Assembly: GCA_038063815.1 (NCBI GenBank)
Contig: JBBTUJ010000004.1
Coordinates: 1 to 41,123, forward strand
Origin: Patescibacteria group bacterium
GTDB taxonomy: Bacteria > Patescibacteriota > Minisyncoccia > Phycocordibacterales > EsbW-18
Direction of reading: 5' to 3'
DNA length: 41,123 bases
The notes beneath the pieces were generated by a model, which worked only from the letters and a program-made list of their open reading frames with translations, had not been told where the DNA came from and made no database searches. The first letter of the stretch is position 1. The number at the start of each line of letters is the position of its first letter. Shown piece after piece: positions 661 through 31,076 of this stretch. Made by a program: the position numbers and the translations under genes.

Positions 661-665
661 TTTAT

Positions 666-1428: not shown

Positions 1429-1460
1429 CAAAACAGTCGCCTGAGGCGACTGTTTTGTTA
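1426..1460. terminator. Bidirectional intrinsic terminator between rpsR and efp
   Basis: TAACAAAACAGTCGCC-TGA-GGCGACTGTTTTGTTA, perfect inverted repeat between convergent genes. Confidence 0.85.
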
Positions 1461-2018
1461 TACGCGGGATGCGTATTCTCCTGTTTCAGTGTTTACTTCG
1501 ATCATGTCACCTTCCTCGACAAAGAGGGGGGTCGTGATAGTTGCTCCCGTTTCGAGCTTCACCAATTTGTTTCCGCCTTGGGATGTGTTGCCGCGCATGC
1601 TGGGCGGTGCCTCAACAACTTTAAATGTCATTTTGATGGGAAGACGGATGCCGATCGGTCGTTCATTGAAAAAAAGTCCCGTGATTTCTGTTTTTTCCTT
1701 AAGAAAACGTGTGTTATCTCCCAAAAGTTCGCTTGGAAGTGTCATGCGCGTTCCCGGATCTCCTGTTTTGTGGAACCACCACTCCCCCTTTGCGTTGTAG
1801 ATGTACATAAGTGGCACAGAATCAATCTCTGCCTCCTCTGCTTTTTCAGACACATGAAAAGAATACTCAGTTACCTTCCCGGTAATGAGATTTTTCAACT
1901 TCGTCGCGTTGACCGGTTTTCGTTGCTGTTTGTGGAAGACATGCGAATCAAGTACATCATACGGCTCGCCGTTCATGATGATGACCTTTCCCGGTCGGAC
2001 TTCGTTATATGTAAGCAT
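1458..2018 (-). CDS. efp: Elongation factor P
   Basis: KLKNLITG, RGNTSQGGNKLVKLETG, PLFVEEGDMIEVNTETGEYASR. Confidence 0.95.
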   Translation of the reverse strand: MLTYNEVRPGKVIIMNGEPYDVLDSHVFHKQQRKPVNATKLKNLITGKVTEYSFHVSEKAEEAEIDSVPLMYIYNAKGEWWFHKTGDPGTRMTLPSELLGDNTRFLKEKTEITGLFFNERPIGIRLPIKMTFKVVEAPPSMRGNTSQGGNKLVKLETGATITTPLFVEEGDMIEVNTETGEYASRV

Positions 2019-2092
2019 ACGTTAACAAAAAACGGCTCATCAAAGCCATTTGTAGAGCTTCACTTTAGCACCAGAAGGAAAGAGTCGGTATC

Positions 2093-2121
2093 TTGACTTC
2101 TTAACATATATGGTATATAAT
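2093..2121 (+). promoter_or_regulatory. Sigma70-type promoter
   Basis: TTGACT-17 nt-TATAAT. Confidence 0.75.
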
Positions 2122-2222
2122 ATGCTTCAGCAAAAGGGTTCTTTGAGAAAGGTTGCTTCGTGGTTTAAGGACATTTGCTTTAAGTGTTTTTTAACCACGA
2201 AGGTTAACCAAGGAGACCAAAC

Positions 2223-2462
2223 ATGCAGAAGCTGTCATTCTTCGTTCGAATCGCGCGAAGCCGGTTGGCGACGTTTGTCGCCACCGCCGTGGTGTTCGTT
2301 GCCGCGGTGTCACCCTTCATCCCCGGCGTCGGCAACCCCGACGCCAACCCGGCCGACGTTTTCTCGTGGACGGCGCGCTGCGCCGCCATGGGATTCGTCG
2401 GACTCTGCGTGATTTGCGTAGAGTCGCGCAAGAAGGGGGTGTTGCCGCTCACAAACGGGTAG
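2223..2462 (+). CDS. Small hypothetical membrane protein (2 predicted TM segments)
   Basis: Promoter plus AAGGAGA SD before the ATG; two hydrophobic stretches; hairpin downstream (~2514-2553). Confidence 0.6.
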   Translation: MQKLSFFVRIARSRLATFVATAVVFVAAVSPFIPGVGNPDANPADVFSWTARCAAMGFVGLCVICVESRKKGVLPLTNG

Positions 2463-2589
2463 CCTTTCCGCCAAGGAACGTCGTGATGACGCGCTGAGGC
2501 GGCCACAAGCTCACGACGGAAGCCCACAACGCTTCATCGTGGGCTTCTTTCGTTCCCGTATTTTGTCTTAACGCAAAAGTGAGCGTCCG

Positions 2590-3669
2590 CTATTCCGCCT
2601 TCAATTTTGCGCGAATCTCAGCGAGAAGTTTTTTCTTTACATCTTTATTCTCTCGCAGATAGGTTCGTGCCGCATCGTATCCGCGTCCGATTGTTTCACC
2701 CCCGTATTTGTATGATGCACCGCTTTTCTCCAGAAGTTCGTACTTTTCACCAAGCGCGAGCATTTCTCCTTCAAGTGAGATGCCTTCGTTGTATACCAAA
2801 TCGAATTCTGCTTGTTTGAATGGTGCCGCAACTTTGTTCTTCACAACTTTCACACGCACACGTCCTCCGACAACCTCTTCACCTTTTTTAATCTGTGCGA
2901 TGCGGCGTACATCGAGACGAACCGATGAATAGAATTTGAGAGCGTTTCCTCCCGGTGTCGTTTCAGGATTTCCGAACACAACACCAATTTTCATACGAAT
3001 CTGGTTGATAAAGATGACGATTGTCTTACTCTTCGCGACAATACCAGTCAATTTTCGAAGTGCCTGACTCATCAAACGTGCTTGTTTGCCCATGTGTTGC
3101 TGTCCCATCTCTCCCTCGATCTCATCTTTTGGAACAAGTGCCGCAACGGAGTCAATGACAACAACATCAATCTTGCCAGTACGCACCAAGGACTCAACGA
3201 TTTCAAGGGCCTGCTCTCCTGTGTCTGGCTGTGAAAGGAGAAGTTCCTCGATCTTCACACCAAGTTTTTTTGTGTATTCCGGATCCATCGCGTGCTCTGC
3301 GTCAACGAATGCGCAAATGCCGCCAGCTTTTTGTGCTTCGGCAACGACGTGGAGTGCGAGCGTTGTTTTTCCCGATGATTCAGGTCCGTAAATCTCGACA
3401 ACGCGTCCGCGGGGAAGTCCGCCGATGCCAAGCGCCGCATCCAAACCAAGAGATCCTGTTGAAACGGCTGCGATATCAACTCGCGGTCGATCACCAAGTT
3501 TCATAATCGAATCCTCGCCAAATTTTGTTTGAATTTGTCGGAGCGTCTCTTCGATGTTCGCCGCGGAGCGTCTGTTTTCCGGTTCTTCCTTGTCCGCTGG
3601 CTTTTTCGTCATCTTTTCTTCTGAAGGCGTTACCGGGGCGTCATTTTTTTGCTGTTTTTTGGGAGCCAT
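2590..3669 (-). CDS. recA: Recombinase A
   Basis: GPESSGKTT Walker [37 protein letters not shown]. Confidence 0.99.
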
Positions 3670-3737
3670 ATGAGATTCTTATTAAGTTTTTTGTAGTAAG
3701 GTACCTCTCATTTTATCACGCTCGTATGAAATTTTCC

Positions 3738-4157
3738 TTAAGGTGTTGTAGTGGCCATTTCAGGTGTCGAGGTGCTCGAGGACGCTTCTCCTGAAATGGA
3801 AAATGACGTTTCAGGACGGTAAAAAATGAGGATTGTCTCTATCTCCACCTCTCCAAATCGATCGGTCGCGGTTATCGTTATGACATTCTTTCCGGAGAGG
3901 AGCGCCACGGGCTCATTAAACGCGCCGAGGTCGTTGACGAACATTACGCGTCCATTTACTGTCATCCCGAGGATGCGCTCTGCGCGTCCTTCTATATAGA
4001 TGAGGGAATCTGTCACGATGTCGCCGTTGCGCGGCGTTACCACTTCAATCCTTGGTCCGAGGAGATACCCACGTGCTTCAAAGAGGACATATCCGATGAT
4101 GGCGATACTCACCAGGAGGGCGGCGGTTCCGGAGAGCGTTCGTGGCGTTATTCTCAT
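3738..4157 (-). CDS. Membrane-anchored protein with Ig-like beta-sandwich domain
   Basis: N-terminal TM then GPRIEV...GKNVITITATDRFG; start moved to ATG 4157 because the upstream extension lies inside a MITE-like element. Confidence 0.7.
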   Translation of the reverse strand: MRITPRTLSGTAALLVSIAIIGYVLFEARGYLLGPRIEVVTPRNGDIVTDSLIYIEGRAERILGMTVNGRVMFVNDLGAFNEPVALLSGKNVITITATDRFGEVEIETILIFYRPETSFSISGEASSSTSTPEMATTTP

Positions 4158-4269
4158 CCCGTTAGAAGCAGGTCGCGGTCTCTGTTCCGCGCGGTTGCTG
4201 GCCAAAACGTAATAAGGTTTGTTTTATCATGAAGAAAATTAACGTATCGCGACCGCGGCTTCTAACGGG
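4158..4269. mobile_element. MITE-like element A (112 bp)
   Basis: Terminal inverted repeats CCCGTTAGAAGC / GCTTCTAACGGG; CTCAT direct repeats on both sides. Confidence 0.75.
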
Positions 4270-4275
4270 TCTCAT

Positions 4276-4393
4276 CCCGTTAGAGATAGGAAACGCAGAG
4301 CGTTTCCGTAGGATTATTTCTAAATATCAATAGGTTGCGTGACATGGTTATTTCGGAGAGTGTGCTCATACAAACTCTTGTATCTCTAACGGG
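4276..4393. mobile_element. MITE-like element B (118 bp)
   Basis: Perfect 13-bp terminal inverted repeats CCCGTTAGAGATA / TATCTCTAACGGG; CTCAT on both sides. Confidence 0.75.
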
Positions 4394-4395
4394 AC

Positions 4396-6621
4396 TCATA
4401 CTTCTTCCTCTGGTGGTCTAGCGGGAACTCCGTCGGGATGGGGGACAAGAACATCGCGTGGTTTTGATCCGTCAGCGGGTCCGATGATGCCGCGCTCTTC
4501 GAGAACATCCATCAAGCGTGCCGCACGTGAGTATCCGATGCGTAGTTTTCTCTGCAGATACGATGTTGACGCTTTTCCGGCGTGAACAACCGTCTCACGA
4601 GCTTCTTCAAACATCTCGTCATCAATCTCGTCTTCATCGTCTCCCCATGCGCTTCCGCCACTCCCACCCTTTGCCGCATCGAGGTCAATCGTCATCGAAA
4701 GATCCTCGTCATCGCTTTTGTGTTCACGCAAGAAATCAGTGACTTTTTTTACCTCGTCTTCCGAGATGTATGCTGATTGCAGACGTTTTGGTTTTCCCAT
4801 GTCGCCCGACATGAAGAGCATGTCACCTGCACCGAGAAGTTTTTCCGCACCCGATGCATCAAGAATGGTTCGTGAATCGATCTGGGAGGAGACCTGAAGC
4901 GCGACGCGTCCCGGGATGTTCGCCTTGATGAGTCCTGTGATGACGTTTACTGACGGGCGTTGTGTCGAGAGAATGAGGTGTATTCCGACAGCGCGGCTCA
5001 TCTGGGCCAAGCGCACGATCCCCGCTTCAAGTTCTCTCGGGTACATCGACATGATGTCCGCGAGCTCATCGATGACGAGGATGATGTACGGCATCGTCTC
5101 GGGCACATCTTCACCTTCTACAATGTCGCCACCTTTTGCTTTTTCGCGCGCAGGGCAGACAATCGTCGCGTGGTATGACGTAATGTCACGAACGCGTCTT
5201 TGTTCAAGGACGTTATACCTCCTCTCCATTTCAGATATCAACCACTTGAGCGCGAGTATCGCTTTCTTCGACTCTGTTATAACGGGTGTCAAAAGGTGCG
5301 GGATACCGTTGTAAAGCGTCAATTCAACTCGTTTTGGGTCAACGAGAACGAAGCGGAGCATCTCGGGGCTATTCCTGAAGAGAAGTGAGTTGATGAGCGC
5401 GTGGATGGTAACCGATTTTCCTGAGCCCGTCGCGCCGGCGATAAGGAGATGCGGCATCTTCACGAGGTTCGCAAAGAGAGGTTGCCCGTCAACGTCGCGT
5501 CCAAATGCAAGCGTTAGAGGATCGCGCGACTCCTGATATTCAGGGAACGAGAGAAGTGTTCCGAGACCCAATTTTGTTTTTGCAGAATTCGGCACCTCAA
5601 TCCCCACCAATGCTTTTCCCGGGATGGGAGCTTCGATGCGCACAGGGTGCGCGGCAAGCGCTAACTCGAGATTTCTCTGCAGTCCAAGAATTTTTGAGAT
5701 GCGAACACCCTCCGCCGGTTTCATCGCGTAGCGCGTGACCGAGGGACCAATCGCGATTTCATCCATCGCGACATCGATGCCGAAATTTTGGAGTGTTCGC
5801 TTGATGATGTTCGCATTCGCTTTGATGTCGCCAACGCCCGGTTTTCCGGAATCCTTCGCGAAAATCGAGAGGGGAGGTGGCGTGTACTCGCCGGTGTATG
5901 CGGCGAGAGAAAACCCCTCTTTCTTTTTCTTCCCGAACAGAGTTTCTTTTATTGTCGGTTCTTCAGATGTTTCTGTAACATTTTTTGCTACAGCACTTTG
6001 GGATACGGGTGCGGTCGCAGCGGGAAGTGCGTTGTCGATTCGCTCCTCCTCATCCTCCGTCAATTCTTTTGCGCCGACGTTTTTATCCTCGTTCTCAAGG
6101 CGTTCCCTACGCTTTTCTTGCCATGCGCGAAGTGTTGCCAAGGGATGCGTGTTGAAGAGTATCAAAAGAGAGATGCAGAAAACCGCGCCAAGAAGGACAC
6201 CTGCTCCGGGTGTGTCAAAGAGTCGCGCAAGCGGGTGCGCAATCCAACCCCCCAAAAGCCCTGCATGATTTGGTGCGAAGAGTTCGATAAGACCAAGACC
6301 TGTTGCACAGAAAAGAATTGACCCCAAGATATTCACAAGTGCCAGATTTGCTTTGACGGAATTCCAATAAGAGTACGCGAGAAGAATCATGAGTGTCGGC
6401 AGAAGGTAGTAGCCGACGCCAAGAAGTTTTCCAAGTATGTTGTACACGCGGCTTCCTACGATTCCGCCGTATCCATACGCAGCAAGAACGAAGAAAATAC
6501 CGATGACAAAAAAGACAACTGCTGAAATCGCGTACATTGTTTCTCGAGAAAGCCCAAACCGAGAAGAAGAAACATTTTTTTCATCATCACGATCTCTCGA
6601 TTTCTTTTTCTTTCGTTTCAT
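4396..6621 (-). CDS. ftsK: DNA translocase FtsK/SpoIIIE
   Basis: N-terminal TMs, PHLLIAGATGSGKS, IDELAD, STQRPSV, gamma domain STSYLQRKLRIGYSRAARLMD. Confidence 0.98.
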   Translation of the reverse strand: MKRKKKKSRDRDDEKNVSSSRFGLSRETMYAISAVVFFVIGIFFVLAAYGYGGIVGSRVYNILGKLLGVGYYLLPTLMILLAYSYWNSVKANLALVNILGSILFCATGLGLIELFAPNHAGLLGGWIAHPLARLFDTPGAGVLLGAVFCISLLILFNTHPLATLRAWQEKRRERLENEDKNVGAKELTEDEEERIDNALPAATAPVSQSAVAKNVTETSEEPTIKETLFGKKKKEGFSLAAYTGEYTPPPLSIFAKDSGKPGVGDIKANANIIKRTLQNFGIDVAMDEIAIGPSVTRYAMKPAEGVRISKILGLQRNLELALAAHPVRIEAPIPGKALVGIEVPNSAKTKLGLGTLLSFPEYQESRDPLTLAFGRDVDGQPLFANLVKMPHLLIAGATGSGKSVTIHALINSLLFRNSPEMLRFVLVDPKRVELTLYNGIPHLLTPVITESKKAILALKWLISEMERRYNVLEQRRVRDITSYHATIVCPAREKAKGGDIVEGEDVPETMPYIILVIDELADIMSMYPRELEAGIVRLAQMSRAVGIHLILSTQRPSVNVITGLIKANIPGRVALQVSSQIDSRTILDASGAEKLLGAGDMLFMSGDMGKPKRLQSAYISEDEVKKVTDFLREHKSDDEDLSMTIDLDAAKGGSGGSAWGDDEDEIDDEMFEEARETVVHAGKASTSYLQRKLRIGYSRAARLMDVLEERGIIGPADGSKPRDVLVPHPDGVPARPPEEEV

Positions 6622-22491: not shown

Positions 22492-22779
22492 ATGGACATC
22501 TCGTCGTTCAGAGATCTGCCGGTCTGCCAGCGTGCGATCGTGACAGCTCTACGGCAGATCGGGGGACGGGCGAGTGTTCGATATGTTTTTGCTCGTCTTG
22601 TCCCCCGAGCGCGTCAACAGAGTTTTTTTACAAGAGAGGAGGTTCATAGGAGTATCATCCAGCTACTGAAGTCGCAGGTCGTGTGGTTGGATGAAGAGTA
22701 CCCAACATGGCGTCTAGAGAAGCAGACGCCGGCGGCCGCGGCCAAAAACCTGGTCGCGATTGCCTTGCGGCCGAGGTAA
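22492..22779 (+). CDS. Hypothetical protein, possibly winged-helix-like
   Basis: AAAGGAGAG SD before ATG 22492; helical pattern; hairpin plus T tract at the stop. Confidence 0.5.
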   Translation: MDISSFRDLPVCQRAIVTALRQIGGRASVRYVFARLVPRARQQSFFTREEVHRSIIQLLKSQVVWLDEEYPTWRLEKQTPAAAAKNLVAIALRPR

Positions 22780-22809
22780 CGCCTCGGCCGTTTGTTTTTA
22801 CATACACCC

Positions 22810-23190
22810 CTAGATGAAATAGGGAATGAAAATAAGCAGGCCGACGATAAGGGCGGTAATGGACGTTATGAGCACAGCTCCTGCCGCAACATCTTTGGTG
22901 TCGCGCGCATACGGATGATATTCGGGCGATGTTAGGTCCATATCGATTTCGATTGCCGTATTGAATGCTTCTGCGGCAAGCACTATTCCTCCGACAAAGA
23001 TGAGGAGGATCCACTCAGTGTGCGTGATTCCGCAATAAAAGCCGAGAAAGAGCGCGACGCAGAATATGACGATATGTATCCACGCGTTGTGAGTTGTTGT
23101 GAGAAAGATCCACAATCCTCGTCCCGCGTGTGCGAAGCTCTTTGCCCGTTTTACCAAAGAGAAGGCCTCTTTTTCTTTAGGTGTTTCCAT
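22810..23190 (-). CDS. dgkA: Prokaryotic diacylglycerol/undecaprenol kinase
   Basis: SFAHAGRG, EAFNTAIE, KDVAAGAVL. Confidence 0.9.
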   Translation of the reverse strand: METPKEKEAFSLVKRAKSFAHAGRGLWIFLTTTHNAWIHIVIFCVALFLGFYCGITHTEWILLIFVGGIVLAAEAFNTAIEIDMDLTSPEYHPYARDTKDVAAGAVLITSITALIVGLLIFIPYFI

Positions 23191-24409
23191 ATGCTGAGAT
23201 TGTTTGTGGTGATGTTGTACTGTATCTCAGTAGCTTTATAATCGCAATTACCGCAAGTATTTGAAACCCCGCCATCGAGAGCATTGCCCATCGGTATCCG
23301 CCGGCGGTAAGCGCAATACTCCACACCAACGGTCCTGCGATTGTCGCAGCGCGCTCTGAAATAGCGTAAATTCCAAAGGTGTAGTGCATGAGGTTTTTAG
23401 GAACAAGGGCGATGAGGAGTTGCCTCGAAACTGAAAACGTTCCACCAATCAAAAGTCCAACGACGATAGTGCCTATAAAGAAAAGAGTGTGACTTGATGC
23501 CAAAGACACAGTGGTGATAACTGGTATCCAACAGAGGAGGATACCTGCCAGAACATTTTTTGCATGAAGCTTGTCTGCAAGCCATCCAAAAATCCAAGCC
23601 CCTAGTGCGGCGGATGTAATGGTGATGAGTACTAGAGTACTGATTTGATTGTTGGGTATTTTGTATACTTCTACGGTAAATATTGAGTAGTTGTTAACGA
23701 GGGTGGTGACTGCATCGCTGAACAAAAAGAATGCGAGAAAAAAATAAAGGAGAATCTTGTTGGAAAAGATTATTTTCAAGAGTTCTCGATGAGATACGTG
23801 TTCTATCGGTTGTGGCTGGTCCGTACGCACGAAGATACTTTTACTCACGAGAAGCGGCAAAGCGCCGAGGATAAAAAGTATCGCGCAGGGAATGAGTGTT
23901 GCCAGTATGGGGTCTACTCCGAATGCGATTGTTCCCGAAATTATGGGAATAGAAATAAGCATTCCGCATATCTGACCGATGTAGTTTGACGTAAAACCGA
24001 TACCCGAGATCTTTCCTCGATTCGTTTCTGTGGAGATGTTACTAAGGAGCGGGTTATAAAAGACGAACGAGAGTTGGTAGAAGAAGTTTCCGATACCAAA
24101 AAAGAGCGCCGACCATCCAACGGGGAAGGCGAGAAGTGCACTGCCAATCGCGAGAGTGTAGAAAACAAAACATCCCCACGTTGAAAGCGATAGATACTTT
24201 TTACCGTTTCCAAACCGGTCAGCTCTCTTTCCAAAGAATGGTGCACAAAATAAAATCGCGACTGAGCCAAAGATAAATGTCGCGTTGTACCACCAATCAG
24301 AGAGTCCTTTGTTGACGACAAGCCAGCGCGAGAAATAGATGAGGAACGTTATGAAGACAAGAGAGTTCGCAAAATCGTACAAACTCCATATAAATATCTT
24401 TTTCTTCAT
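23177..24409 (-). CDS. MFS transporter (UMF1/Atg22-like)
   Basis: WSLYDFANS, FYNPLL, GKISGIG; about 12 TM segments. Confidence 0.88.
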   Translation of the reverse strand: MKKKIFIWSLYDFANSLVFITFLIYFSRWLVVNKGLSDWWYNATFIFGSVAILFCAPFFGKRADRFGNGKKYLSLSTWGCFVFYTLAIGSALLAFPVGWSALFFGIGNFFYQLSFVFYNPLLSNISTETNRGKISGIGFTSNYIGQICGMLISIPIISGTIAFGVDPILATLIPCAILFILGALPLLVSKSIFVRTDQPQPIEHVSHRELLKIIFSNKILLYFFLAFFLFSDAVTTLVNNYSIFTVEVYKIPNNQISTLVLITITSAALGAWIFGWLADKLHAKNVLAGILLCWIPVITTVSLASSHTLFFIGTIVVGLLIGGTFSVSRQLLIALVPKNLMHYTFGIYAISERAATIAGPLVWSIALTAGGYRWAMLSMAGFQILAVIAIIKLLRYSTTSPQTISAYGNT

Positions 24410-24419
24410 CCCGTTAGAG
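24410..24419. mobile_element. Solo terminal repeat of the CCCGTTAGA MITE family
   Basis: CCCGTTAGAG abuts the MFS ATG, same geometry as at 4157/4158. Confidence 0.45.
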
Positions 24420-24674
24420 GTTTAGTATTGTAATAGCATTTGTTGGTACTGTCGTCTGGATACCGTAGGGGGACGTTTATCTTGCTGTTGTTCGCGACTT
24501 CTGTTTCGCTGTTCCTATTTAAACGCTAGTTGGAGCGATTGGGGCGGAATTGGTAGAGCCACGGCGAACGGTTTTCCATGATGTATATGATATCACGTCT
24601 TTTTGTTTGGTTGCGCAGAAACCCTTTATTTTTAGCGTTTTTTATTGTAAGTTAGGTATTGCTAGCTATTTTTC

Positions 24675-24745
24675 TGCCGGATCGTCTAATGGTAGGACAC
24701 ATCCCTCTGGAGGATGGTATCTTGGTTCGAGTCCAAGTCCGGCAA
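24675..24745 (+). tRNA. tRNA-Gln(CTG)
   Basis: TGCCGGATCGTCTAATGGTAGGACACATCCCTCTGGAGGATGGTATCTTGGTTCGAGTCCAAGTCCGGCAA. Confidence 0.93.
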
Positions 24746-24761
24746 TAAGTGACTAATAAAT

Positions 24762-25271
24762 ATGACGAATCAAGACAAACCAAAGCATAAGAATTTTCAA
24801 ATTGCAGACTTAATCAAAAAGATAAAGACCTTTTTGTCGGATGAAAAGCCTTCAGATATTTTGATTATAAAAGCTCACTTACTCTGTGAGTACTATATAA
24901 ACCAGATATTAATTTTAAGAGAAGCCTGCTCTCTTAAGGACATGGAGTCTTTTACTTTTAATGAAAAGATTCAAAAAGCATTTAATTTAGATGATTTGTT
25001 AGAAAAACGCACTTTCGATTACGTAAATCGACTAAATAAATTACGCAATAAGGTCGGTCATGAATTGGAATATACCTTATCTGAATCAGACGTTGATGCT
25101 CTGGGCTATGTTCAAGGGAAGGAGTATATCTTGGAAAAATATGATTATGAAACCGATTTAGAGAGACTGAGAAATGTCCTTAATACTATTGTTATTGACA
25201 CAGCTTTATTGTTAATAAGTAGTATCAAGGTAGAGAGACAAAAAGTTAAAACTACACCTGAAACTAATTAA
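24762..25271 (+). CDS. Hypothetical protein with HEPN/MtlR-like Rx4H motif
   Basis: LIIKAHLLCE...LNKLRNKVGH; visibly AT-rich. Confidence 0.6.
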   Translation: MTNQDKPKHKNFQIADLIKKIKTFLSDEKPSDILIIKAHLLCEYYINQILILREACSLKDMESFTFNEKIQKAFNLDDLLEKRTFDYVNRLNKLRNKVGHELEYTLSESDVDALGYVQGKEYILEKYDYETDLERLRNVLNTIVIDTALLLISSIKVERQKVKTTPETN

Positions 25272-25276
25272 TTCAG

Positions 25277-25302
25277 GGTTCCAACATCGTAACAAACTGC
25301 CA
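25277..25302 (+). repeat. 26-nt cassette-boundary repeat 1
   Basis: GGTTCCAACATCGTAACAAACTGCCA. Confidence 0.65.
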
Positions 25303-25306
25303 AAAT

Positions 25307-25825
25307 ATGAAAGTAGTTGTTGTAAATAATCAAGACGAAATTCTTAGGTATGTAGACAAGAAAGACAGAACCTCCGAAGATATTATTCGTGTGTCGGGGC
25401 TTTGGATTTTTAACTCAAACGGTGAATTACTAATTGCACAAAGAGCTCTAGATAAAAAACATGATCCAGGGAAATGGGGACCTTCTGTAGCAGGGACAGT
25501 AGAAGAAGGAGAAACCTATGTTTCCAATATTCTTAAGGAGACCAAAGAAGAGCTGGGTGTATCTTTAACTGAGGACGAACTTGTACAGAGCACGCATCGG
25601 TACGTCCAAACCTCCCATAAATATTTTGTGCGGATATTTTTTGTTGAAATGGATGTTCCAATTTCAGCTTTTAAAGTTCAGGCCGAGGAAGTTGAACAAG
25701 TCAAATGGATTTCTGCCCAAGAGTTACAAGAATGGTTTGTCCAGGCTCCCCAGGACTTCATTTTATCTTTTGGAGACGCTCTTCAAGACTATATTCGATT
25801 TTCAACAAATTGGTTGAAAAGCTAA
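25307..25825 (+). CDS. NUDIX hydrolase (IPP isomerase type 1-like)
   Basis: LLIAQRA..K..PGKW.PSVAG, GETY...KETKEELG. Confidence 0.85.
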   Translation: MKVVVVNNQDEILRYVDKKDRTSEDIIRVSGLWIFNSNGELLIAQRALDKKHDPGKWGPSVAGTVEEGETYVSNILKETKEELGVSLTEDELVQSTHRYVQTSHKYFVRIFFVEMDVPISAFKVQAEEVEQVKWISAQELQEWFVQAPQDFILSFGDALQDYIRFSTNWLKS

Positions 25826-25827
25826 TT

Positions 25828-25853
25828 AGTTCCACCATCATCCCACGCAGCCA
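25828..25853 (+). repeat. 26-nt cassette-boundary repeat 2
   Basis: AGTTCCACCATCATCCCACGCAGCCA. Confidence 0.85.
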
Positions 25854-25921
25854 TACGCACAAACCCCGCCAACAGCACGGGGCTTGGCGGGGAGGGAGGG
25901 GTGTTCTAAAAAGACGACTGC

Positions 25922-26548
25922 TCAGTCGAGTTCTGCTCGAAGCATGAGCAGGAGGAGTACGGTGACGATCACTAGCGCCCGTGTCGCGTATACCTTGGGA
26001 AGGAATGTGTCCTTCCAGGTTCGCGGTTTTACTGCTCCCTCCCCATCCTTTTTGGGAAGGTAAGCGGAAACCATCGCAAACACACATGCAAACCATATGG
26101 GAATCCAAGAGCTCCATGGCTCCGGGTTTTCATCCACGGTGAGCATGCGCGCAATGAGCGGCAGATACCCGATCACCATCAGTGCCTGGATGGCGAGGTT
26201 TGATAAGAACGGGCTCTTGCTCCGCCACCAGAAGATCAGCACGACTCCTGCGATTGCGAGATTGCTGATTTCGAACCAGGTAAACCCCGATCGTACATTG
26301 TTGCCGAAGATGCTGATGGTGGCCAGGATGAGGGCGGTCACGACCAGATCAACGGTGTTACCGATGTTGTCGACGAGGCTGTGGTGATCTGTGGTCCAGT
26401 AGGTCCAGAATGCGATACCTACCGAAACCGTGAGCACCAACCAGCTAGCGAAGACGGGGTCATTTTTTCCAACAATGGTGAGCCAGCAGTAACGCAGGCC
26501 AGCCCACATCATCAGAATTGTGACCATCAAAGCGGATATCTTGCGCAC
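25922..26548 (-). CDS. Hypothetical multi-pass membrane protein
   Basis: About 7 hydrophobic segments; own TTGACG-17-TAAAGT promoter and AAAGGGGG SD. Confidence 0.7.
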   Translation of the reverse strand: MRKISALMVTILMMWAGLRYCWLTIVGKNDPVFASWLVLTVSVGIAFWTYWTTDHHSLVDNIGNTVDLVVTALILATISIFGNNVRSGFTWFEISNLAIAGVVLIFWWRSKSPFLSNLAIQALMVIGYLPLIARMLTVDENPEPWSSWIPIWFACVFAMVSAYLPKKDGEGAVKPRTWKDTFLPKVYATRALVIVTVLLLLMLRAELD

Positions 26549-26656
26549 CGCGGACCCCCTTTCTTTGAGAGGAACAATTCAGAACTTTAGACTTCTGATG
26601 TAACTTTACAAGATATAATAGATAACGTCAAGAACCACCATTGATGTTAAAATATG

Positions 26657-26682
26657 GATTCCACCATCATCCCACGCAGCAA
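26657..26682 (+). repeat. 26-nt cassette-boundary repeat 3
   Basis: GATTCCACCATCATCCCACGCAGCAA; 22 contiguous nt identical to repeat 2. Confidence 0.85.
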
Positions 26683-26711
26683 ATACATAAGTTCTTGGAT
26701 GACATATCTAC

Positions 26712-27308
26712 ATGTTGAAAAATCTCATTTTTGATTTTGACGGTGTTATTGCAGACACCCATGATATTAATTGGTTTCTCAGCCACGAGCATGATGAGAC
26801 CGCGACGTATGAAGATTTTCTGGCGCATCATGATGGAAATGTCTATGCAGAACCAAGAATTAAGTTTAAACCAGAAAGTTCACACCTCTTTTTTGATGAG
26901 TATAGAAAAAGAGTAACTACCAGCCATTTAGAAAAGTCGATAGAACCATTGAAAAGATTAAAGGAAAAATATTCTCTCTATATAATTTCGAGTACCAGCG
27001 AGCCCGTTATAAAAGAAATCTTGGAGAAAAGTCAGATATTAGATATCTTCGTTCGGATACTGGGGCAAGAAACCCATGAATCTAAAGTTGAGAAATTTAA
27101 AATGTTAATAGAGAACGGCGTTGTTACATCAGAGAATACGGTTTTTGTTACCGATACTTTAGGAGATATAAAGGAGGCGCATAAAGTAGGTATTAAAACC
27201 ATAGCCGAGACATTCGGGTTTCATAATAGGGAAAGATTAGAGACAGGGGAGCCTTTTAAAATTGTTGATTCTTGGGAAGAAATTGAAAGAACTGTTGATG
27301 GGTTATAA
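26712..27308 (+). CDS. HAD-superfamily hydrolase
   Basis: IFDFDGVIADT motif I; ISST; FVTDTLGDI. Confidence 0.9.
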   Translation: MLKNLIFDFDGVIADTHDINWFLSHEHDETATYEDFLAHHDGNVYAEPRIKFKPESSHLFFDEYRKRVTTSHLEKSIEPLKRLKEKYSLYIISSTSEPVIKEILEKSQILDIFVRILGQETHESKVEKFKMLIENGVVTSENTVFVTDTLGDIKEAHKVGIKTIAETFGFHNRERLETGEPFKIVDSWEEIERTVDGL

Positions 27309-27309
27309 T

Positions 27310-27335
27310 TACTTTACCATTGTCCCAAATGGCCA
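27310..27335 (+). repeat. 26-nt cassette-boundary repeat 4 (degenerate)
   Basis: TACTTTACCATTGTCCCAAATGGCCA; ungapped alignment to the other copies. Confidence 0.5.
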
Positions 27336-27349
27336 ATAATATCAAGTCC

Positions 27350-27946
27350 ATGAATATTCCAACTGTCACATTTATATATGCGTATCCCCTGGATGTCGGG
27401 AGAAGGCGACTTTTTGAAGAAAAGAATCTGGGATCATACCCATCACTCGAAGAGGTCAAGAAGGTAATACAACATTGGGAGCACGTTTGGCAAGAAACAA
27501 ATCAAGATAATAAAGTGATGCAGAAATTGGTTGAAGTATCGCGTCGTGTGCCAAAAAGAGCACTAGAATGTTTTGTATTCGGCGGAGGATTAAATCCAAT
27601 GTCGACTCCGTTTCTTATGCCGACGATGGCCCGCGGTGGTACGACAAGATCAGATGAAAATTTTATAGAGACCATGATCCACGAATTGCTCCATATTTTT
27701 GTGATGCATGACGCCGATACCTACTGGTCAATGGTGCGGGAAAAATATTCTAAAGAAACACCTCTTACTCAAAATCATATAATTATCTTTGCCATGCTTG
27801 CCAAAGCGTATCAGTATCTCTTTGGTCAAATGCCGCCAAGTTTTTCAGGGGGAGACCTGCCGGAAGAATACTCGCAAGCGATAGATATAGTTAAAGACGT
27901 TGGCTACGAACAAGTTATCGCTGAATATAACACCCTAGTGCAGTAA
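27350..27946 (+). CDS. Hypothetical protein with HExxH zincin-like motif
   Basis: ETMIHELLH; start chosen downstream of repeat 4. Confidence 0.65.
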   Translation: MNIPTVTFIYAYPLDVGRRRLFEEKNLGSYPSLEEVKKVIQHWEHVWQETNQDNKVMQKLVEVSRRVPKRALECFVFGGGLNPMSTPFLMPTMARGGTTRSDENFIETMIHELLHIFVMHDADTYWSMVREKYSKETPLTQNHIIIFAMLAKAYQYLFGQMPPSFSGGDLPEEYSQAIDIVKDVGYEQVIAEYNTLVQ

Positions 27947-27953
27947 TCAGGAT

Positions 27954-27979
27954 GGTTCTAACATCGTCCCACGCAGCCA
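27954..27979 (+). repeat. 26-nt cassette-boundary repeat 5
   Basis: GGTTCTAACATCGTCCCACGCAGCCA. Confidence 0.85.
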
Positions 27980-28031
27980 ACACGCTAGTTTAGTGTCCGG
28001 AAGAATGGCCTTTTTACTTCATATTGGACGT

Positions 28032-28071
28032 GTAAAGCCAGCTTTACTACTCTCTAGTGAGCGTCTATAAT
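28032..28071 (+). promoter_or_regulatory. Operator GTAAAG-N4-CTTTAC overlapping the -35 of a TTTACT-17-TATAAT promoter
   Basis: Palindrome at 28032-28047; same core at 28673-28688. Confidence 0.7.
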
Positions 28072-28078
28072 CAGACAT

Positions 28079-28291
28079 ATGCAGGAGAAGATAAAAAATG
28101 AGGTAAGCAAATATAGAACACAGATGGGCGTGACTCAAGAAGAACTCGCGTCCAAGGTGAATGTCAGTCGGCAGACCATCATTGCTTTGGAGAAGGGGAA
28201 CTACACGCCATCAATTTTACTGGCCCTAAAGATAGCGGGGTTTTTCAAAATGCCCGTTGAAAAACTATTCAAAATATCCTATGAGAAATAA
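28079..28291 (+). CDS. Xre/Cro-family HTH transcriptional regulator
   Basis: TQEELASKVNVSRQTIIALEKGNYTPSILLALKIA. Confidence 0.93.
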   Translation: MQEKIKNEVSKYRTQMGVTQEELASKVNVSRQTIIALEKGNYTPSILLALKIAGFFKMPVEKLFKISYEK

Positions 28292-28643
28292 TCTTTTAGA
28301 AACACTGGTGACCGCGTGTTTGATTGCGCTTGCAATTTTACTCCTCAATCCTTTTCAGTTTTGGATGCCTGATGTGGTAGTGATTTGTTTGCTTGCTGTC
28401 ACACTTGGCCTTTTTGGTATATTCGCAAGCTTTATACTTCGAGAAAGGGTGGCTGATGAACGCGAAGGGTTGCATCGCACCTTGGCAGGTAGAAATGCGT
28501 TTCTTGCGGGCTCTGGAGTGCTCACGCTTGCGATTGTTGTTCAGGGCTATACCCACTCTGTTGACCCATGGCTGGTGATAGCGCTGGTTGCCATGATTAT
28601 CGTAAAAATTTTGACCCGTATTTGGAGTGACAAAAACCTCTAA
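28281..28643 (+). CDS. Small membrane protein (DUF2178-like) paired with the Xre regulator
   Basis: 4 TM segments with a DERE motif; overlaps the regulator stop. Confidence 0.7.
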   Translation: MRNNLLETLVTACLIALAILLLNPFQFWMPDVVVICLLAVTLGLFGIFASFILRERVADEREGLHRTLAGRNAFLAGSGVLTLAIVVQGYTHSVDPWLVIALVAMIIVKILTRIWSDKNL

Positions 28644-28668
28644 GGGATGCCCTATTTATCCACTAAGT

Positions 28669-28712
28669 AGATGTAAAGTGTGCTTTACATCTGTTTTGGT
28701 TTTTATTACACT
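28669..28712 (+). promoter_or_regulatory. Operator overlapping the -35 of a TTTACA-17-TACACT promoter
   Basis: AGATGTAAAG-TGTG-CTTTACATCT perfect palindrome. Confidence 0.7.
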
Positions 28713-28753
28713 TATATCTATAACTAAATAGAATTAGTAGTTAATTATTTTTT

Positions 28754-29266
28754 ATGAATAAAACAACAGGAATTATTATTGGAGTCGTTGTCGTGGTACT
28801 CATCGCTGGAGGTATGTATGCATCAGTGAACAAGGGCGATGATGGAATGATGGACGCATCTTTAAAAGCGAAAGACGAGGACCAGATGATGAAGGACGAC
28901 CCAATCACACAAGATGGCAAAACCAACACGGTGGATGAAAGCGACAAAATGATGAAGGCAGGGTCGTATGAGGCATACGCGCCCGAAAAACTCGCGCGAG
29001 CCGAAACGGGCGATGTTGTGCTGTTCTTCCACGCATCATGGTGCCCATCATGCCGAGGATTGAACAGCGATATTGAGAAAAATCTTAGTGCGATACCGCC
29101 CGAGGTAAGCATCTTGAAGGTTGATTACGATACGGAGTCGGCGCTGAAGAAGAAATACGGAGTGACGTATCAGCACACGCTCGTACAAGTGGATGCAGAT
29201 GGCGCGATGATTAAGAAATGGAGCGGTAGCCCAACACTAAGTAGCTTGGTATCGCAAATCAATTAG
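28754..29266 (+). CDS. Membrane-anchored extracytoplasmic thioredoxin
   Basis: N-terminal TM, Met-rich linker, FFHASWCPSC. Confidence 0.9.
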   Translation: MNKTTGIIIGVVVVVLIAGGMYASVNKGDDGMMDASLKAKDEDQMMKDDPITQDGKTNTVDESDKMMKAGSYEAYAPEKLARAETGDVVLFFHASWCPSCRGLNSDIEKNLSAIPPEVSILKVDYDTESALKKKYGVTYQHTLVQVDADGAMIKKWSGSPTLSSLVSQIN

Positions 29267-29267
29267 C

Positions 29268-31076
29268 ATGATTTTCCTCGGTATATCAATTTTGGCGGGC
29301 ATACTCACGATTCTTGCGCCGTGTATATTGCCACTCCTCCCGGTGATAATAGGCGCGTCCGAAACAGGTGGGCGCCACATAGGAGGGCGAGCACTTGTGG
29401 TTATCGGCTCGCTATCTGTCTCCATTATTGTTTTTACGCTTCTTCTTAAGGCGTCAACGCTCCTTATTGATATTCCACAGGTATTTTGGAGTTGGTTTTC
29501 GGGTGTCATTATCATCTTGGTTGGTCTTGCGATTGTGTTTCCATTGCTTTGGGCAAAGGTGCCGTATGTAAACAAAATCAGCTTAATTGGCAACAAAGCG
29601 GTTGGGGCGGGGTATCAGAAAAAAAACTATACAGGAGACGTGCTGATTGGGCTGGCACTCGGTCCGGTCTTTACGACCTGCTCGCCGACGTATTTGTTTA
29701 TAATCGCAACGGCACTGCCCGCAACGTTCCTTACCGGATTTCTCTATCTTATTGGTTTTACACTTGGCTTAGCACTCGCGCTCCTTCTTGTTGCGTATTT
29801 TGGACAAAGTATCGTCAATGCACTTAGTGCTCGCATGAACACCACGGGGCGGATAAAACAGATCTTCGGTGTACTCATCGTTTTAGTTGGAATCGCGATA
29901 CTGACCGGATTCGATAAGAAGATTGAGACATTCATTCTTGATTCAGGATACGGCGCAACAATACAGCTGGAGAATACATTCATCGAACGATTTGCTCCGA
30001 CGGGTGCGTCGACAGAAGAAAGTCGTGGTGATGGCGCGTACGAAGTCATTACTTTGGCGGGGGGATGTTTCTGGTGTACAGAAGCGTATTTCCAGGAAGA
30101 AGAAGGAATCATTGATGCGGTTTCGGGATATGCTGGTGGAAGCGAAGACAGCGCTTCGTATCTGATGGTTGCGAAGGGAACGACGAAGCATCGAGAGGCG
30201 GTGCAGATAACCTATGATCCACAAATAATCTCCACCGAAGAAGTGCTTGATATCTATTGGTCGCATATTGACCCAACGAACACGGAAGGCCAATTTGCAG
30301 ACAATGGGTTTCAGTATACGACTGCAATTTTCTACCAAAACGATGAGCAAAAGGAGATAGCAATTGATTCAAAAACTCGATTGGAAGGGAGCAATCTTTT
30401 TGATGCGCCAATTGTAACAGTCATTGTCCCACTCACCACGTTCTTTGCAGCAGAAGAATATCATCAGGATTATTACAAAAAAGCGGAAGACCACTACGAA
30501 CGCTACAAAAAAGCATCAGGCAGGGCGGGGTTCGTAGAGGATACATGGGCAAAAGATGCCGCTATACAATTTTTAGAATCAGAACAAACAAATACTATGG
30601 ATACAAACGATGCGTCAAAGAAAGATAGCTACAATTACACCGACGAAGAAATCGCGGAATTACTCAAAAACCTAGATCCGCTTGCGTATCATGTGGTTGC
30701 CGAGAGCGGGACCGAATCGCCATTCAATAACGCATATTGGGATAACAAAGCAGACGGAATCTATGTCGATGTCGTTACAGGGAAACCCCTCTTTTCGAGT
30801 ACTCATAAATATGACTCGGGAACTGGCTGGCCAAGTTTTTGGAGAACGATCGACGACGATTCAGTAACGATGCATGAAGATAAGTCGCTTTCGACAACGC
30901 GCACCGAAATACGGAGCGATGCTGGACATGTTGGGCACGTTTTCGAGGATGGTCCCACGGAGGAGGGAGGCCGTCGTTTTTGCACCAATTCGGCTTCACT
31001 TCGTTTTGTCCCTAAAGCAGAAATGACCAAAGAAGGGCACGGTGAATATCTCTATTTGTTTGAGAAATCTGTGTAA
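29268..31076 (+). CDS. msrAB: CcdA/DsbD-type membrane domain fused to MsrA and MsrB
   Basis: APCILPLLP and TCSP (CcdA); AGGCFWC and AEEYHQDYY (MsrA); KYDSGTGWPSF, HVGHVFEDGP, RFCTNSASL (MsrB). Confidence 0.9.
   Translation: MIFLGISILAGILTILAPCILPLLPVIIGASETGGRHIGGRALVVIGSLSVSIIVFTLLLKASTLLIDIPQVFWSWFSGVIIILVGLAIVFPLLWAKVPYVNKISLIGNKAVGAGYQKKNYTGDVLIGLALGPVFTTCSPTYLFIIATALPATFLTGFLYLIGFTLGLALALLLVAYFGQSIVNALSARMNTTGRIKQIFGVLIVLVGIAILTGFDKKIETFILDSGYGATIQLENTFIERFAPTGASTEESRGDGAYEVITLAGGCFWCTEAYFQEEEGIIDAVSGYAGGSEDSASYLMVAKGTTKHREAVQITYDPQIISTEEVLDIYWSHIDPTNTEGQFADNGFQYTTAIFYQNDEQKEIAIDSKTRLEGSNLFDAPIVTVIVPLTTFFAAEEYHQDYYKKAEDHYERYKKASGRAGFVEDTWAKDAAIQFLESEQTNTMDTNDASKKDSYNYTDEEIAELLKNLDPLAYHVVAESGTESPFNNAYWDNKADGIYVDVVTGKPLFSSTHKYDSGTGWPSFWRTIDDDSVTMHEDKSLSTTRTEIRSDAGHVGHVFEDGPTEEGGRRFCTNSASLRFVPKAEMTKEGHGEYLYLFEKSV

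What the first reader, a model, noticed from the sequence alone, without database searches (positions are those of the whole stretch)
24675..27979. tRNA-Gln-anchored array of single-gene cassettes, each closed by a 26-nt tRNA-3'-like repeat
Seen: five unrelated genes follow tRNA-Gln (HEPN-like, NUDIX, membrane, HAD, HExxH). Each is followed on the + strand by an ungapped 26-nt repeat at 25277, 25828, 26657, 27310 and 27954, consensus about GGTTCCA(A/C)CATC(G/A)TCCCACGCAGCCA. Four copies start within 1-7 nt of the preceding stop codon. The only inverted gene carries its own promoter and SD. The repeat starts like a T-arm (GGTTC) and usually ends GCCA like an acceptor end. It is not palindromic like attC, and no integrase is in the window. 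Inference: an integron-like system that captures genes one at a time at the tRNA 3' end using a recombinase encoded elsewhere, with expression possibly from the tRNA promoter.
Basis: partly seen in the sequence, partly recalled or inferred. Interest (0 to 1): 0.88.

Follow-up and report, generated by a model that had tools for sequence, protein, structure and literature searches.

The report
Gene-cassette array docked at tRNA-Gln
Behind a glutamine tRNA gene of an ultra-small bacterium sits a row of foreign single genes, each closed by the same 30-letter signal, and the same layout recurs in many related tiny bacteria, which points to a gene-collecting system that seems not to have been described.

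Summary
Behind tRNA-Gln (24675-24745) lie five units of foreign base composition. Three close with a strong motif copy, one with a diverged copy and one with a decayed copy. The motif, A.AAArGTTCCAACATCGTCCCAnACAGCCArCA, is not local. It occurs in 19 of 401 genomes of the same order and in at least 119 stretches of public genomes, nearly all labelled Patescibacteria. It forms arrays of up to nine or more mostly single-gene units. Where a tRNA lies upstream, it is tRNA-Gln in 47 of 52 loci. Cargo is extremely diverse, and DNA similarity between cassettes never runs past a motif copy. In four loci the motif is the far end of a 3-7 kb element whose large serine recombinase gene abuts tRNA-Gln. 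Its GTTC block lies exactly 5 nt further out than the tRNA T-loop GTTC, as in attP versus attB half-sites. Its last bases co-vary with the tRNA's 3' end. My reading is a serine-recombinase att half-site that closes cassettes stacked at the tRNA 3' end. It works like an integron but is not one. Unshown: that lone cassettes move, which enzyme moves them, and how they are expressed. I found no description in print.

The parts
24675..24745 (+). tRNA-Gln(ctg), the docking site. Its 3' part from G53 (24725) to A73 (24745) is read as the attB-type half-site. The proposed crossover is at C71-A72 (24743-24744).
   Evidence: register compared with PMC3783163
24762..25271 (+). Cassette 1 gene, 169 aa, HEPN-like (Rx4H motif), 31% GC. 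No Pfam, PADLOC or credible NCBIfam hit.
25278..25305 (+). Motif copy 1, diverged (GTTCCAACATCGTAACAAACTGCCA+AAA). It starts 5 nt after the stop codon (counting the R before GTTC).
   Evidence: 4 mismatches
25307..25825 (+). Cassette 2 gene, NUDIX hydrolase, 172 aa, 39% GC.
   Evidence: (PDC-S07)
25829..25856 (+). Motif copy 2, strong.
25922..26548 (-). Cassette 3 gene, inverted, 208-aa hydrophobic protein, 54% GC. It has its own promoter-like site (26631-26603), an SD-like sequence and a terminator-like hairpin (25928-25915).
26658..26685 (+). Motif copy 3, strong. The proposed central dinucleotide is mutated to AA.
26712..27308 (+). Cassette 4 gene, HAD-family hydrolase, 198 aa, 36% GC. It belongs to the most recurrent cassette family (9 members in 9 arrays).
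27311..27338 (+). Motif copy 4, decayed (about 17 of 26 identical). It starts 1 nt after the HAD stop codon (counting the base before the GTTC position).
   Evidence: read by eye; position supported by homologous HAD cassettes
27350..27946 (+). Cassette 5 gene, HExxH (HELLH) protein, 198-208 aa, 42% GC. No family hit.
27955..27982 (+). Motif copy 5, strong, the terminal copy. It is followed by ACACGCT, the same letters that follow the first motif of a same-genus genome (L035).

Best explanation
The 26-nt repeat is the core of a 35-nt recombination signal. I read it as the element-side (attP-type) left half-site of large serine recombinases that use the 3' end of tRNA-Gln as their attB-type half-site. 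Foreign genes, mostly one per unit, each carry this signal at their 3' end. They are stacked behind the tRNA by recombination within the last bases of the tRNA (the block Y71-A72-R73-C-A, most likely the dinucleotide 71-72). Each incoming unit would then supply the new discriminator base and trailer, and the old tail would move behind the incoming motif. Only the left half of each site is specific. The product at the tRNA therefore stays a usable target, and every motif stays a possible partner for excising the block between it and the tRNA. The recombinase need not be resident. In some genomes it sits in a 3-7 kb rolling-circle-replicon-like element at the same tRNA. In this genome the only recombinase found is one large serine recombinase on another contig. 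Shown: the motif, its link to tRNA-Gln, the modular structure, the serine-recombinase elements that end in the motif, the register shift and the co-variation. Inferred: that lone cassettes are moved in trans by such an enzyme, the crossover position, and the one-sided recognition.
For: (1) The motif is real and conserved far beyond this genome. It occurs in 19 of 401 genomes of the order with at most 3 mismatches, while the reversed-pattern control gave 0 in all.
(2) Information content is confined to positions -6 to +28 and is zero beyond (294 instances).
(3) The nearest upstream tRNA within 5 kb is tRNA-Gln on the same strand in 47 of the 52 loci that have one. The other 88 of 140 loci show none, and 74 of those hold less than 5 kb upstream.
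(4) Both tRNA-Gln genes of this genome carry arrays. All 7 hits with at most 2 mismatches to the distal 17-mer lie behind them, against a mean of 1.1 in 20 shuffles.
(5) Unit structure: 232 distinct cassettes, of which 164 hold one ORF; median spacing is 635 nt (n=172). The 335 ORFs fall into 307 clusters, 290 of them singletons. A same-strand ORF stop lies within 12 nt upstream of 115 of 279 motifs, against 250 of 5580 random positions.
(6) In 9 pairs of DNA-similar cassettes the similarity never runs past a motif, and in 6 of the 9 it ends in the downstream motif.
(7) In L040, L044, L143 and L203 the motif ends an element whose large serine recombinase gene overlaps the 3' end of tRNA-Gln. 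These proteins match Pfam Resolvase, Recombinase and Zn_ribbon_recom.
(8) Serine-recombinase elements at tRNA-Ser, tRNA-Ile and tRNA-Trp end in the same distal module fused to a proximal part that copies that tRNA's 3' end.
(9) GTTC lies 26 nt before the conserved CA in the motif and 21 nt before it in the tRNA, a shift of 5. With the centre at positions 71-72, rGTTCCAAC occupies half-site positions 16-24 and GGTTCGAnT occupies 11-19. These are the zinc-ribbon-domain motif positions given for attP and attB of LI integrase (PMC3783163, passages read).
(10) Co-variation over 46 loci and 99 copies: position 71 is identical in 96 of 99 and position 73 in 93 of 99, with 0 of 2000 permutations reaching either value. 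Position 70 is identical in only 31 of 99 and shows no signal.
(11) This genome shows no PF00589 tyrosine recombinase and exactly one PF00239 protein, a large serine recombinase at C1:45295-46629.
Against: (1) There is no conserved right half-site and no dyad symmetry at cassette junctions. Canonical serine-integrase sites have two half-sites.
(2) Four array-bearing genomes (G003, G092, G112, G410) have no PF00239 match at all, and each has one Xer-like PF00589 protein.
(3) Across the order, a homologue of the large serine recombinase (E<=1e-20) is found in 14 of 19 motif-bearing genomes and in 230 of 382 others. That is no real enrichment.
(4) Only 7 of 140 array loci hold a match to this recombinase.
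(5) The resident recombinase of this genome is only 37% identical to the tRNA-Gln-adjacent one. It sits 2 kb from tRNA-Gly, so its target is unknown.
(6) No internal second motif occurs in 5 recombinase-bearing elements, so no delivery route is visible.
(7) In this array the copy nearest the tRNA is the second most decayed of the five. The bases at the proposed centre and just after it are not uniform: CA, CA, AA, CA, CA, followed by A, T, A, A, A.
(8) The loci in the co-variation count are related to an unknown degree, so the permutation figures overstate independence.
Confidence: 0.6

Rival explanations
1. The motif copies are scars. Each marks one past integration of a complete recombinase-bearing element at tRNA-Gln. 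The backbone was later lost by deletion, leaving only the cargo gene next to the far-end att site. On this reading nothing moves as a lone cassette.
For: Complete elements exist and end in the motif. The last gene of the L040 element recurs as a stand-alone cassette in L163 at 67% DNA identity, ending exactly at the motif. Decayed copies exist, namely window copies 1 and 4 and the C2 array. Contigs of four runs show a fixed order.
Against: It needs hundreds of deletions that each run from the tRNA end to just before a cargo gene. Yet units begin directly after the previous motif, spacing is tight (median 635 nt) and 164 of 232 units hold one ORF. No backbone remnants were seen between motifs: a large-serine-recombinase match occurs in only 7 of 140 loci. 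Most copies are nearly perfect, which scars without function should not be.
Confidence: 0.15
2. The motif is a recombination signal, but for another agent. Candidates are the single Xer-like tyrosine recombinase of these genomes, an unknown enzyme, or RecA-driven exchange between about 30-nt motif copies after DNA uptake.
For: Four array genomes lack any serine recombinase but each has one PF00589 protein. The site is one-sided, unlike classical serine-integrase sites.
Against: This genome shows no PF00589 match at 97% completeness. The motif has no inverted arms round a spacer as Xer or integrase core sites do. It is no dif site: only 19 of 401 genomes hold it, always in arrays. This rival does not explain the 5-nt register shift or the chimeric motifs of serine-recombinase elements at other tRNAs.
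Confidence: 0.12
3. The motif acts in RNA, for example as a 3'-end, processing or tRNA-like signal shared by mRNAs transcribed from the tRNA-Gln promoter. It is then not a DNA recombination site.
For: It lies right after stop codons on the coding strand. It resembles a tRNA 3' part and ends in GCCA. Gene spacing in the window is tight.
Against: There is no fold: z-scores are +0.27 to +1.25 on both strands. There was no Rfam hit other than the tRNA. The motif also follows inverted genes (copy 3; 40 of 164 single-ORF units are on the - strand). It marks the ends of integrated serine-recombinase elements and the limits of DNA similarity, which an RNA signal does not explain.
Confidence: 0.05

Closest known systems
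Integrons (IntI, attI, attC cassette arrays)
   Same: Arrays of mostly single, very diverse, mostly co-oriented genes. Each gene is closed by a recombination signal. The array is stacked at one docking site. Arrays often lack a resident recombinase, as in clusters of attC sites without an integrase (that comparison is recalled).
   Different: There is no IntI and, in this genome, no tyrosine recombinase at all. The signal is an unstructured, one-sided 35-nt motif, not a folded attC palindrome. The docking site is the 3' end of a tRNA gene, not an attI beside intI.
Large serine integrase attP/attB systems (LI/A118, Bxb1, phiC31)
   Same: Recombinases with Resolvase, Recombinase and zinc-ribbon domains abut the site in four loci. 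The distal motif is displaced by 5 bp between element-side and host-side half-sites, at positions 16-24 and 11-19 (PMC3783163). The shared core is short.
   Different: Only the left half-site is conserved. The sites stand in arrays behind one target. Most units carry no recombinase. Classical attL is not a target, whereas here the tRNA seems to be re-used.
SCC elements of staphylococci (Ccr serine recombinases; recalled, not checked here)
   Same: Elements dock at the 3' end of a conserved gene. Composite islands hold several elements separated by short direct repeats, and some elements lack recombinase genes.
   Different: The target is rlmH, not a tRNA. Elements are tens of kb, not about 0.6 kb single genes. 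The repeat is a copy of the target core.
Tycheposons of Prochlorococcus (bioRxiv 10.1101/2020.12.28.424599; passages read)
   Same: tRNA-anchored islands are built by successive integrations that push older elements outward. 27 of 937 elements use a large serine recombinase, and the elements carry replication genes.
   Different: Tycheposons are integrase-carrying elements flanked by partial tRNA copies. Here the repeat is not a tRNA copy (5-6 identical bases plus a displaced T-loop-like block), and the units are mostly single genes without an integrase.

Membership tests
Integron | intI (tyrosine recombinase) next to the array | tested here: not met
   No PF00589 match anywhere in the 632-kb assembly, which is 97.4% complete. 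No recombinase among the 9 ORFs flanking the array that were scanned.
Integron | attC sites: imperfect palindromes that fold as single strands | tested here: not met
   No inverted partner. Information content is zero outside -6 to +28. Fold z-scores are +0.27 to +1.25 on both strands.
Integron | Array of mostly single-ORF, co-oriented cassettes of diverse content | tested here: met
   164 of 232 units hold one ORF; 124 of these 164 are on the motif strand; 290 of 307 protein clusters are singletons.
Large serine recombinase att system | Recombinase with Resolvase + Recombinase + zinc-ribbon domains beside the att site | tested here: inconclusive
   Met in L040, L044, L143 and L203. Not met at the window's array. 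One such gene lies elsewhere in the genome. Absent from 4 other array genomes.
Large serine recombinase att system | Distal (zinc-ribbon-domain) motif 5 bp closer to the centre in attB than in attP | tested here: met
   GTTC lies 26 nt before the shared CA in the motif and 21 nt before it in the tRNA, in all 46 loci. The positions match those given in PMC3783163.
Large serine recombinase att system | Two half-sites in dyad symmetry round a central dinucleotide | tested here: not met
   Nothing is conserved to the right of +28 at 294 junctions. In three recombinase-bearing elements the right arm shows only weak symmetry.
Large serine recombinase att system | Recombination between the two sites by the enzyme | not testable with these tools
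   Needs an assay. Contigs of four runs showed no joints at the motifs.
Tycheposon / classical tRNA island | Element flanked by a partial copy of the target tRNA | tested here: not met
   The motif shares only the last 5-6 bases with the tRNA. Position 70 differs in 68 of 99 copies.
Xer/dif-exploiting modules (IMEX, pdif) | dif-like site with two arms, plus a chromosomal dif of the same kind in each genome | tested here: not met
   No dyad. The motif is found in only 19 of 401 genomes, always in arrays or behind tRNA-Gln.

The most novel reading that the evidence does not exclude
Patescibacteria have their own phylum-wide gene-capture platform, a functional counterpart of the integron built on serine-recombinase logic. 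The 3' end of tRNA-Gln serves as a reusable docking half-site. Each cassette carries a one-sided attP-type half-site and also supplies the tRNA's last base and trailer. Blocks are added and removed at the tRNA end, last in and first out, by recombinases that visit on small rolling-circle replicons. The platform trades small nucleotide- and metabolite-handling enzymes (NUDIX, HAD, HD nucleotidases, P-loop kinases, methyltransferases) among ultra-small symbionts.
Probability: 0.4. Interest if true: 0.9.

Novelty: new variant of a known kind. Interest (0 to 1): 0.8.

Why it matters
Patescibacteria (CPR) have tiny genomes and depend on hosts. How they gain and exchange accessory genes is largely unknown. 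A recent survey of their horizontally acquired regions does not mention tRNA, recombinase, integrase, cassette or integron in its main text (PMC12455944, term search). If this reading holds, one conserved 35-nt signal and one tRNA gene define a predictable place where these organisms collect foreign genes. Their flexible gene pool could then be read directly from metagenomes. It would also be a second, independent solution to cassette capture, using a serine rather than a tyrosine recombinase. And it suggests that a serine integrase can work with one specific half-site per partner, which would interest genome engineers. The modular site (a common distal block plus a proximal part that copies the target tRNA) hints at how such enzymes are retargeted in nature.

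Tried and rejected
attC-like folding: rejected, because the motif does not fold.

Known RNA family: none apart from the tRNA itself.

dif site: rejected.

Chance or coding match: the single family-level hit in G012 lies inside a coding region and is chance.

Close relatives of the locus: a scan of metagenome contigs with the neighbouring MFS protein gave no close relative (best 29% identity), so no strain-level comparison was possible.

Reads: Logan contigs of runs X3, X4, X6 and X8 laid on 22500-30000 cover the array in the same order. They show no joint at a motif border. These are contigs, so rare variants would be dropped. I draw no conclusion on mobility from this.

Free element: the motif pattern gave 0 hits in viral contigs, and the large-serine-recombinase protein gave no relative there.

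Hit-and-run delivery: I looked for a second internal motif in 5 recombinase-bearing elements and found none.

L167: small HAD-like and NUDIX-like genes lie between the locus start and a truncated recombinase gene. I saw no motif at the expected junction.

Similarity of the motif's inner part to tRNA 3' ends: among the 41 tRNAs of this genome the two tRNA-Gln genes rank 1st and 3rd (10 and 9 of 16 scored positions). This is weak, and ARAGORN's end positions vary.

The regex used for other tRNAs also gave chance hits (one in L241, two in L242). It failed on L238 because the T-loop was mis-located. Only the three hits that also carry the distal module are used.

Literature: searches found nothing that describes this arrangement. 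I read passages only of PMC3783163, 10.1101/2020.12.28.424599, PMC9580842 and PMC12455944. Supplements were not seen and might list such islands. Subscription journals are not covered.


Full report
WHAT IS IN THE WINDOW. The window is contig C4 of a 632-kb, 19-contig genome of about 48% GC. tRNA-Gln(ctg) lies at 24675-24745. Five ORFs follow:
- 24762-25271: 169 aa, an Rx4H motif, no family hit.
- 25307-25825: NUDIX.
- 25922-26548 on the minus strand: a hydrophobic 208-aa protein.
- 26712-27308: HAD.
- 27320/27350-27946: a protein with HELLH.
GC of the ORFs is 31, 39, 54, 36 and 42%, so the block is compositionally foreign and heterogeneous.

The repeat. Its 24-nt core matches at 25830, 26659 and 27956 with at most 1 mismatch, and there were no matches in 100 shuffles. 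The repeat finder adds the diverged copy at 25277. The copy at 27310 is weak and was found by no tool. It sits 1 nt after the HAD stop codon. That is where homologous HAD cassettes of other arrays carry the motif, so I accept it as decayed. The inverted gene has a promoter-like site, an SD-like sequence and a terminator-like hairpin. Contigs of four runs from two studies bridge the junctions in the same order, so the array is real.

THE MOTIF IS NOT LOCAL. In the 17 genomes of the family (16 besides this one) the only other match to a 16-nt core with 1 mismatch allowed is a chance match inside a gene. With 3 mismatches allowed on the 24-nt core, 19 of 401 genomes sampled from the order have it, at 28 places. 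The pattern read backwards matched in none. My own estimate of chance hits for that pattern is about 2. Of the 80 stretches listed, 69 carry Patescibacteria-type labels (Paceibacterota, Parcubacteria, Nomura-, Kaiser-, Campbell- and Berkelbacteria, 'Saccharibacteria', Patescibacteria group). Eight are unnamed bacteria and three carry other labels. These labels are the submitters' own.

Across 294 distinct instances, information content is high from -6 to +28 relative to the G of GTTC and falls to zero on both sides. The motif is A.AAArGTTCCAACATCGTCCCAnACAGCCArCA. Positions -6 to -1 and +25 to +28 lay outside the search pattern, so their conservation is not an ascertainment effect. The motif does not fold on either strand.

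LINK TO tRNA-Gln AND UNIT STRUCTURE. I examined 140 loci. In 52 a tRNA lies within 5 kb upstream of the first motif. It is tRNA-Gln on the motif's strand in 47, tRNA-Ala in 2, tRNA-Tyr in 1 and an opposite-strand tRNA-Arg in 2. The other 88 show no tRNA, and 74 of those hold less than 5 kb upstream.

Arrays reach nine units behind one tRNA-Gln (L052 = L127), and more on two contigs that were cut into blocks. Motif-to-motif spacing has a median of 635 nt (182-4909, n=172). Of 232 distinct units, 164 hold one ORF of 50 aa or more, and 124 of those 164 are on the motif strand. A same-strand ORF of at least 60 codons stops within 12 nt upstream of 115 of 279 motifs, against 250 of 5580 random positions.

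The 335 ORFs form 307 clusters, 290 of them singletons. The largest cluster (9 members) is the HAD family and includes the window's gene. Among 121 motif-adjacent ORFs, Pfam finds:
- HAD in 7 and NUDIX in 7;
- methyltransferases in 4;
- histidine phosphatases in 3 and P-loop kinases in 3;
- short-chain dehydrogenase, diacylglycerol kinase, GNAT acetyltransferase and others in 1-2 each.
PADLOC matches are few.

In nine pairs of DNA-similar units from different loci, similarity never runs past a motif, and in six it ends in the downstream motif. The best pair (90% over 323 nt) has unrelated neighbours on both sides.

In the same genus the genes upstream are syntenic (68-85% protein identity). 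What follows tRNA-Gln differs entirely: one unit in G009, three motif copies with other genes in G003 and in G002.

THIS GENOME HAS A SECOND ARRAY. All 7 hits with at most 2 mismatches to the distal 17-mer lie behind the two tRNA-Gln genes, against a mean of 1.1 in 20 shuffles. Behind tRNA-Gln(ttg) at C2:36802-36872, decayed copies follow stop codons at 37995, 38642 and 46571. The cargo there includes an AAA_18 kinase, an HD 5'-deoxynucleotidase, a methyltransferase and a short-chain dehydrogenase.

WHICH ENZYME. In L040 (G187), L044 (G186), L143 and L203 (G337), tRNA-Gln is followed by a 480-502-aa gene on the opposite strand whose 3' end overlaps the tRNA. The protein matches Resolvase, Recombinase and Zn_ribbon_recom, so it is a large serine recombinase. 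A rolling-circle Rep gene (PF23343 or PF05144) follows, then cargo (AbiEii; or an EcoRI-like methylase plus GmrSD/HNH). The motif comes 3.3-6.5 kb from the tRNA. The motif is therefore the far-end att site of such elements.

Such recombinases are very common in the order: 244 of 401 genomes have a match at E<=1e-20. They often abut tRNA genes of many kinds. Elements at tRNA-Ser(gct), tRNA-Ile(gat) and tRNA-Trp end in GTTCCAACTTCATCCCA-like blocks fused to a proximal part that copies the 3' end of that tRNA. For tRNA-Ser, 12 consecutive bases are identical. The site is thus modular. It has a common distal block, and a proximal block that mimics the target.

GEOMETRY AND CO-VARIATION. tRNA-Gln ends ...GGCA-R-CA and the motif ends ...GCCA-R-CA. 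GTTC lies 21 nt before that CA in the tRNA (G53) and 26 nt before it in the motif, a shift of 5.

Over 46 loci and 99 copies, tRNA position 71 and the aligned motif base are identical in 96 (C with C 85 times, T with T 11 times). Position 73 is identical in 93 (G with G 78, A with A 15). In both cases 0 of 2000 permutations of loci reach the observed value. Positions 68-70 show no signal; at position 70 the tRNA has G and the motif C in 61 of 99.

The block shared by descent or by requirement therefore starts at position 71. If the central dinucleotide is 71-72 (motif +23/+24), rGTTCCAAC occupies half-site positions 16-24 and the tRNA's GGTTCGAnT occupies 11-19. [quoted passage not shown] A crossover at the CA after the discriminator is not excluded. 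The loci are related to an unknown degree, so the permutation counts are not probabilities.

HOW IT MOST LIKELY WORKS (inferred). A tRNA-targeting enzyme meets a conserved left half (the tRNA) and an arbitrary right half (whatever lies downstream). It must therefore tolerate a non-specific right half. If that also holds for the element side, a circle with motif|x can recombine with tRNA|y to give tRNA|x...motif|y. The tRNA junction then remains a target and each motif remains a partner. Units pile up at the tRNA, with the newest next to it. Any block between the tRNA and a motif can leave again.

With the crossover at 71-72, each unit brings the discriminator base and trailer of the tRNA. That would explain the conserved R-C-A at unit starts. 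In the window the terminal junction reads GCCA|ACACGCT, as does the first junction of the same-genus genome G003. This fits an old tRNA flank pushed outward, but six letters are weak evidence.

WHAT SPEAKS AGAINST IT.
- No right half-site is seen at 294 junctions.
- G003, G092, G112 and G410 have arrays but no PF00239 protein, and each has one Xer-like PF00589 protein.
- This genome has one large serine recombinase (C1:45295-46629, 37% identical to that of L040, 2 kb from tRNA-Gly) and no PF00589 match.
- Presence of the recombinase is not enriched among motif-bearing genomes: 14 of 19 against 230 of 382.
- No free element, circle or joint was found, and no internal second motif.
- In the window the tRNA-proximal copy is the second most decayed of the five, and one central dinucleotide reads AA.

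I therefore hold the 'recombination signal that bounds mobile units' part at about 0.85. The full serine-recombinase cassette model I hold at 0.6.

COMPARISON AND NOVELTY. The system works like an integron but fails the tests for intI and attC. It shares enzyme family and site geometry with serine integrases but lacks the second half-site. It resembles SCC composite islands (recalled) and tycheposons in docking at the 3' end of a conserved gene and in stacking. It differs from them in unit size, in the nature of the repeat and in host.

Six literature searches found no description. A 2025 survey of horizontal transfer in Patescibacteria does not use the words tRNA, recombinase, integrase, cassette or integron in its main text. 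Supplements and subscription journals were not seen. I rate it a new variant of a known kind, of high interest.

Noticed in passing
own genome, contig C2:36802-46598 (locus L244): A second array lies behind the genome's other tRNA-Gln(ttg). Decayed motif copies at 37995, 38642 and 46571 each follow a stop codon. Cargo includes an AAA_18 kinase, an HD 5'-deoxynucleotidase, a methyltransferase and a short-chain dehydrogenase.
   Followed up: partly
L237:5643, L239:5466, L242:13185: Large-serine-recombinase elements at tRNA-Ser(gct), tRNA-Ile(gat) and tRNA-Trp end in the same distal block (GTTCCAACTTCATCCCA-like). It is fused to a proximal part that copies that tRNA's 3' end. This is a modular att site that could show how targets are switched.
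   Followed up: partly
own genome, contig C1:43200-48000 (locus L053): The genome's only serine recombinase (45295-46629, minus strand) lies in an island. A 580-aa P-loop protein and a 349-aa ORF that I took by eye for a reverse transcriptase (not scanned) are its neighbours. The island is 2 kb from tRNA-Gly(ccc), which is followed by a stray tRNA-3'-half-like fragment.
   Followed up: partly
L036, L043, L048, L052 (first 80 nt after tRNA-Gln): Partial direct copies (L036, L043) or inverted copies (L048, L052) of the tRNA-Gln 3' part lie just downstream of the intact tRNA. They may be remnants of other integration events or right-arm sites.
   Followed up: no
L206:5975: A more distant serine recombinase (35% identical) also abuts tRNA-Gln. 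About 5 kb away lies a different A-rich-preceded GTTC block that ends in the tRNA-like tail. It may be a second motif family for the same target.
   Followed up: no
own genome (whole): No Phage_integrase (PF00589) match, not even a Xer-type gene, in a 97.4% complete assembly. Five related genomes each have exactly one. The gene may lie in an assembly gap.
   Followed up: no
window 29268-31076: A 602-aa ORF. Relatives encode its parts separately: matches to residues 2-241, about 235-406 and about 460-588 fall in separate open frames. From the sequence I read it as a CcdA-like membrane part fused to MsrA and MsrB. It follows a thioredoxin gene (28754-29266).
   Followed up: no
L096 and L149 (genome contigs): Two motif-bearing contigs sit in MAGs labelled Bacteroidota (Patiriisocius, Crocinitomicaceae). 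L096 has tRNA-Gln plus two units. This is either mis-binned Patescibacteria DNA or spread beyond the phylum.
   Followed up: no
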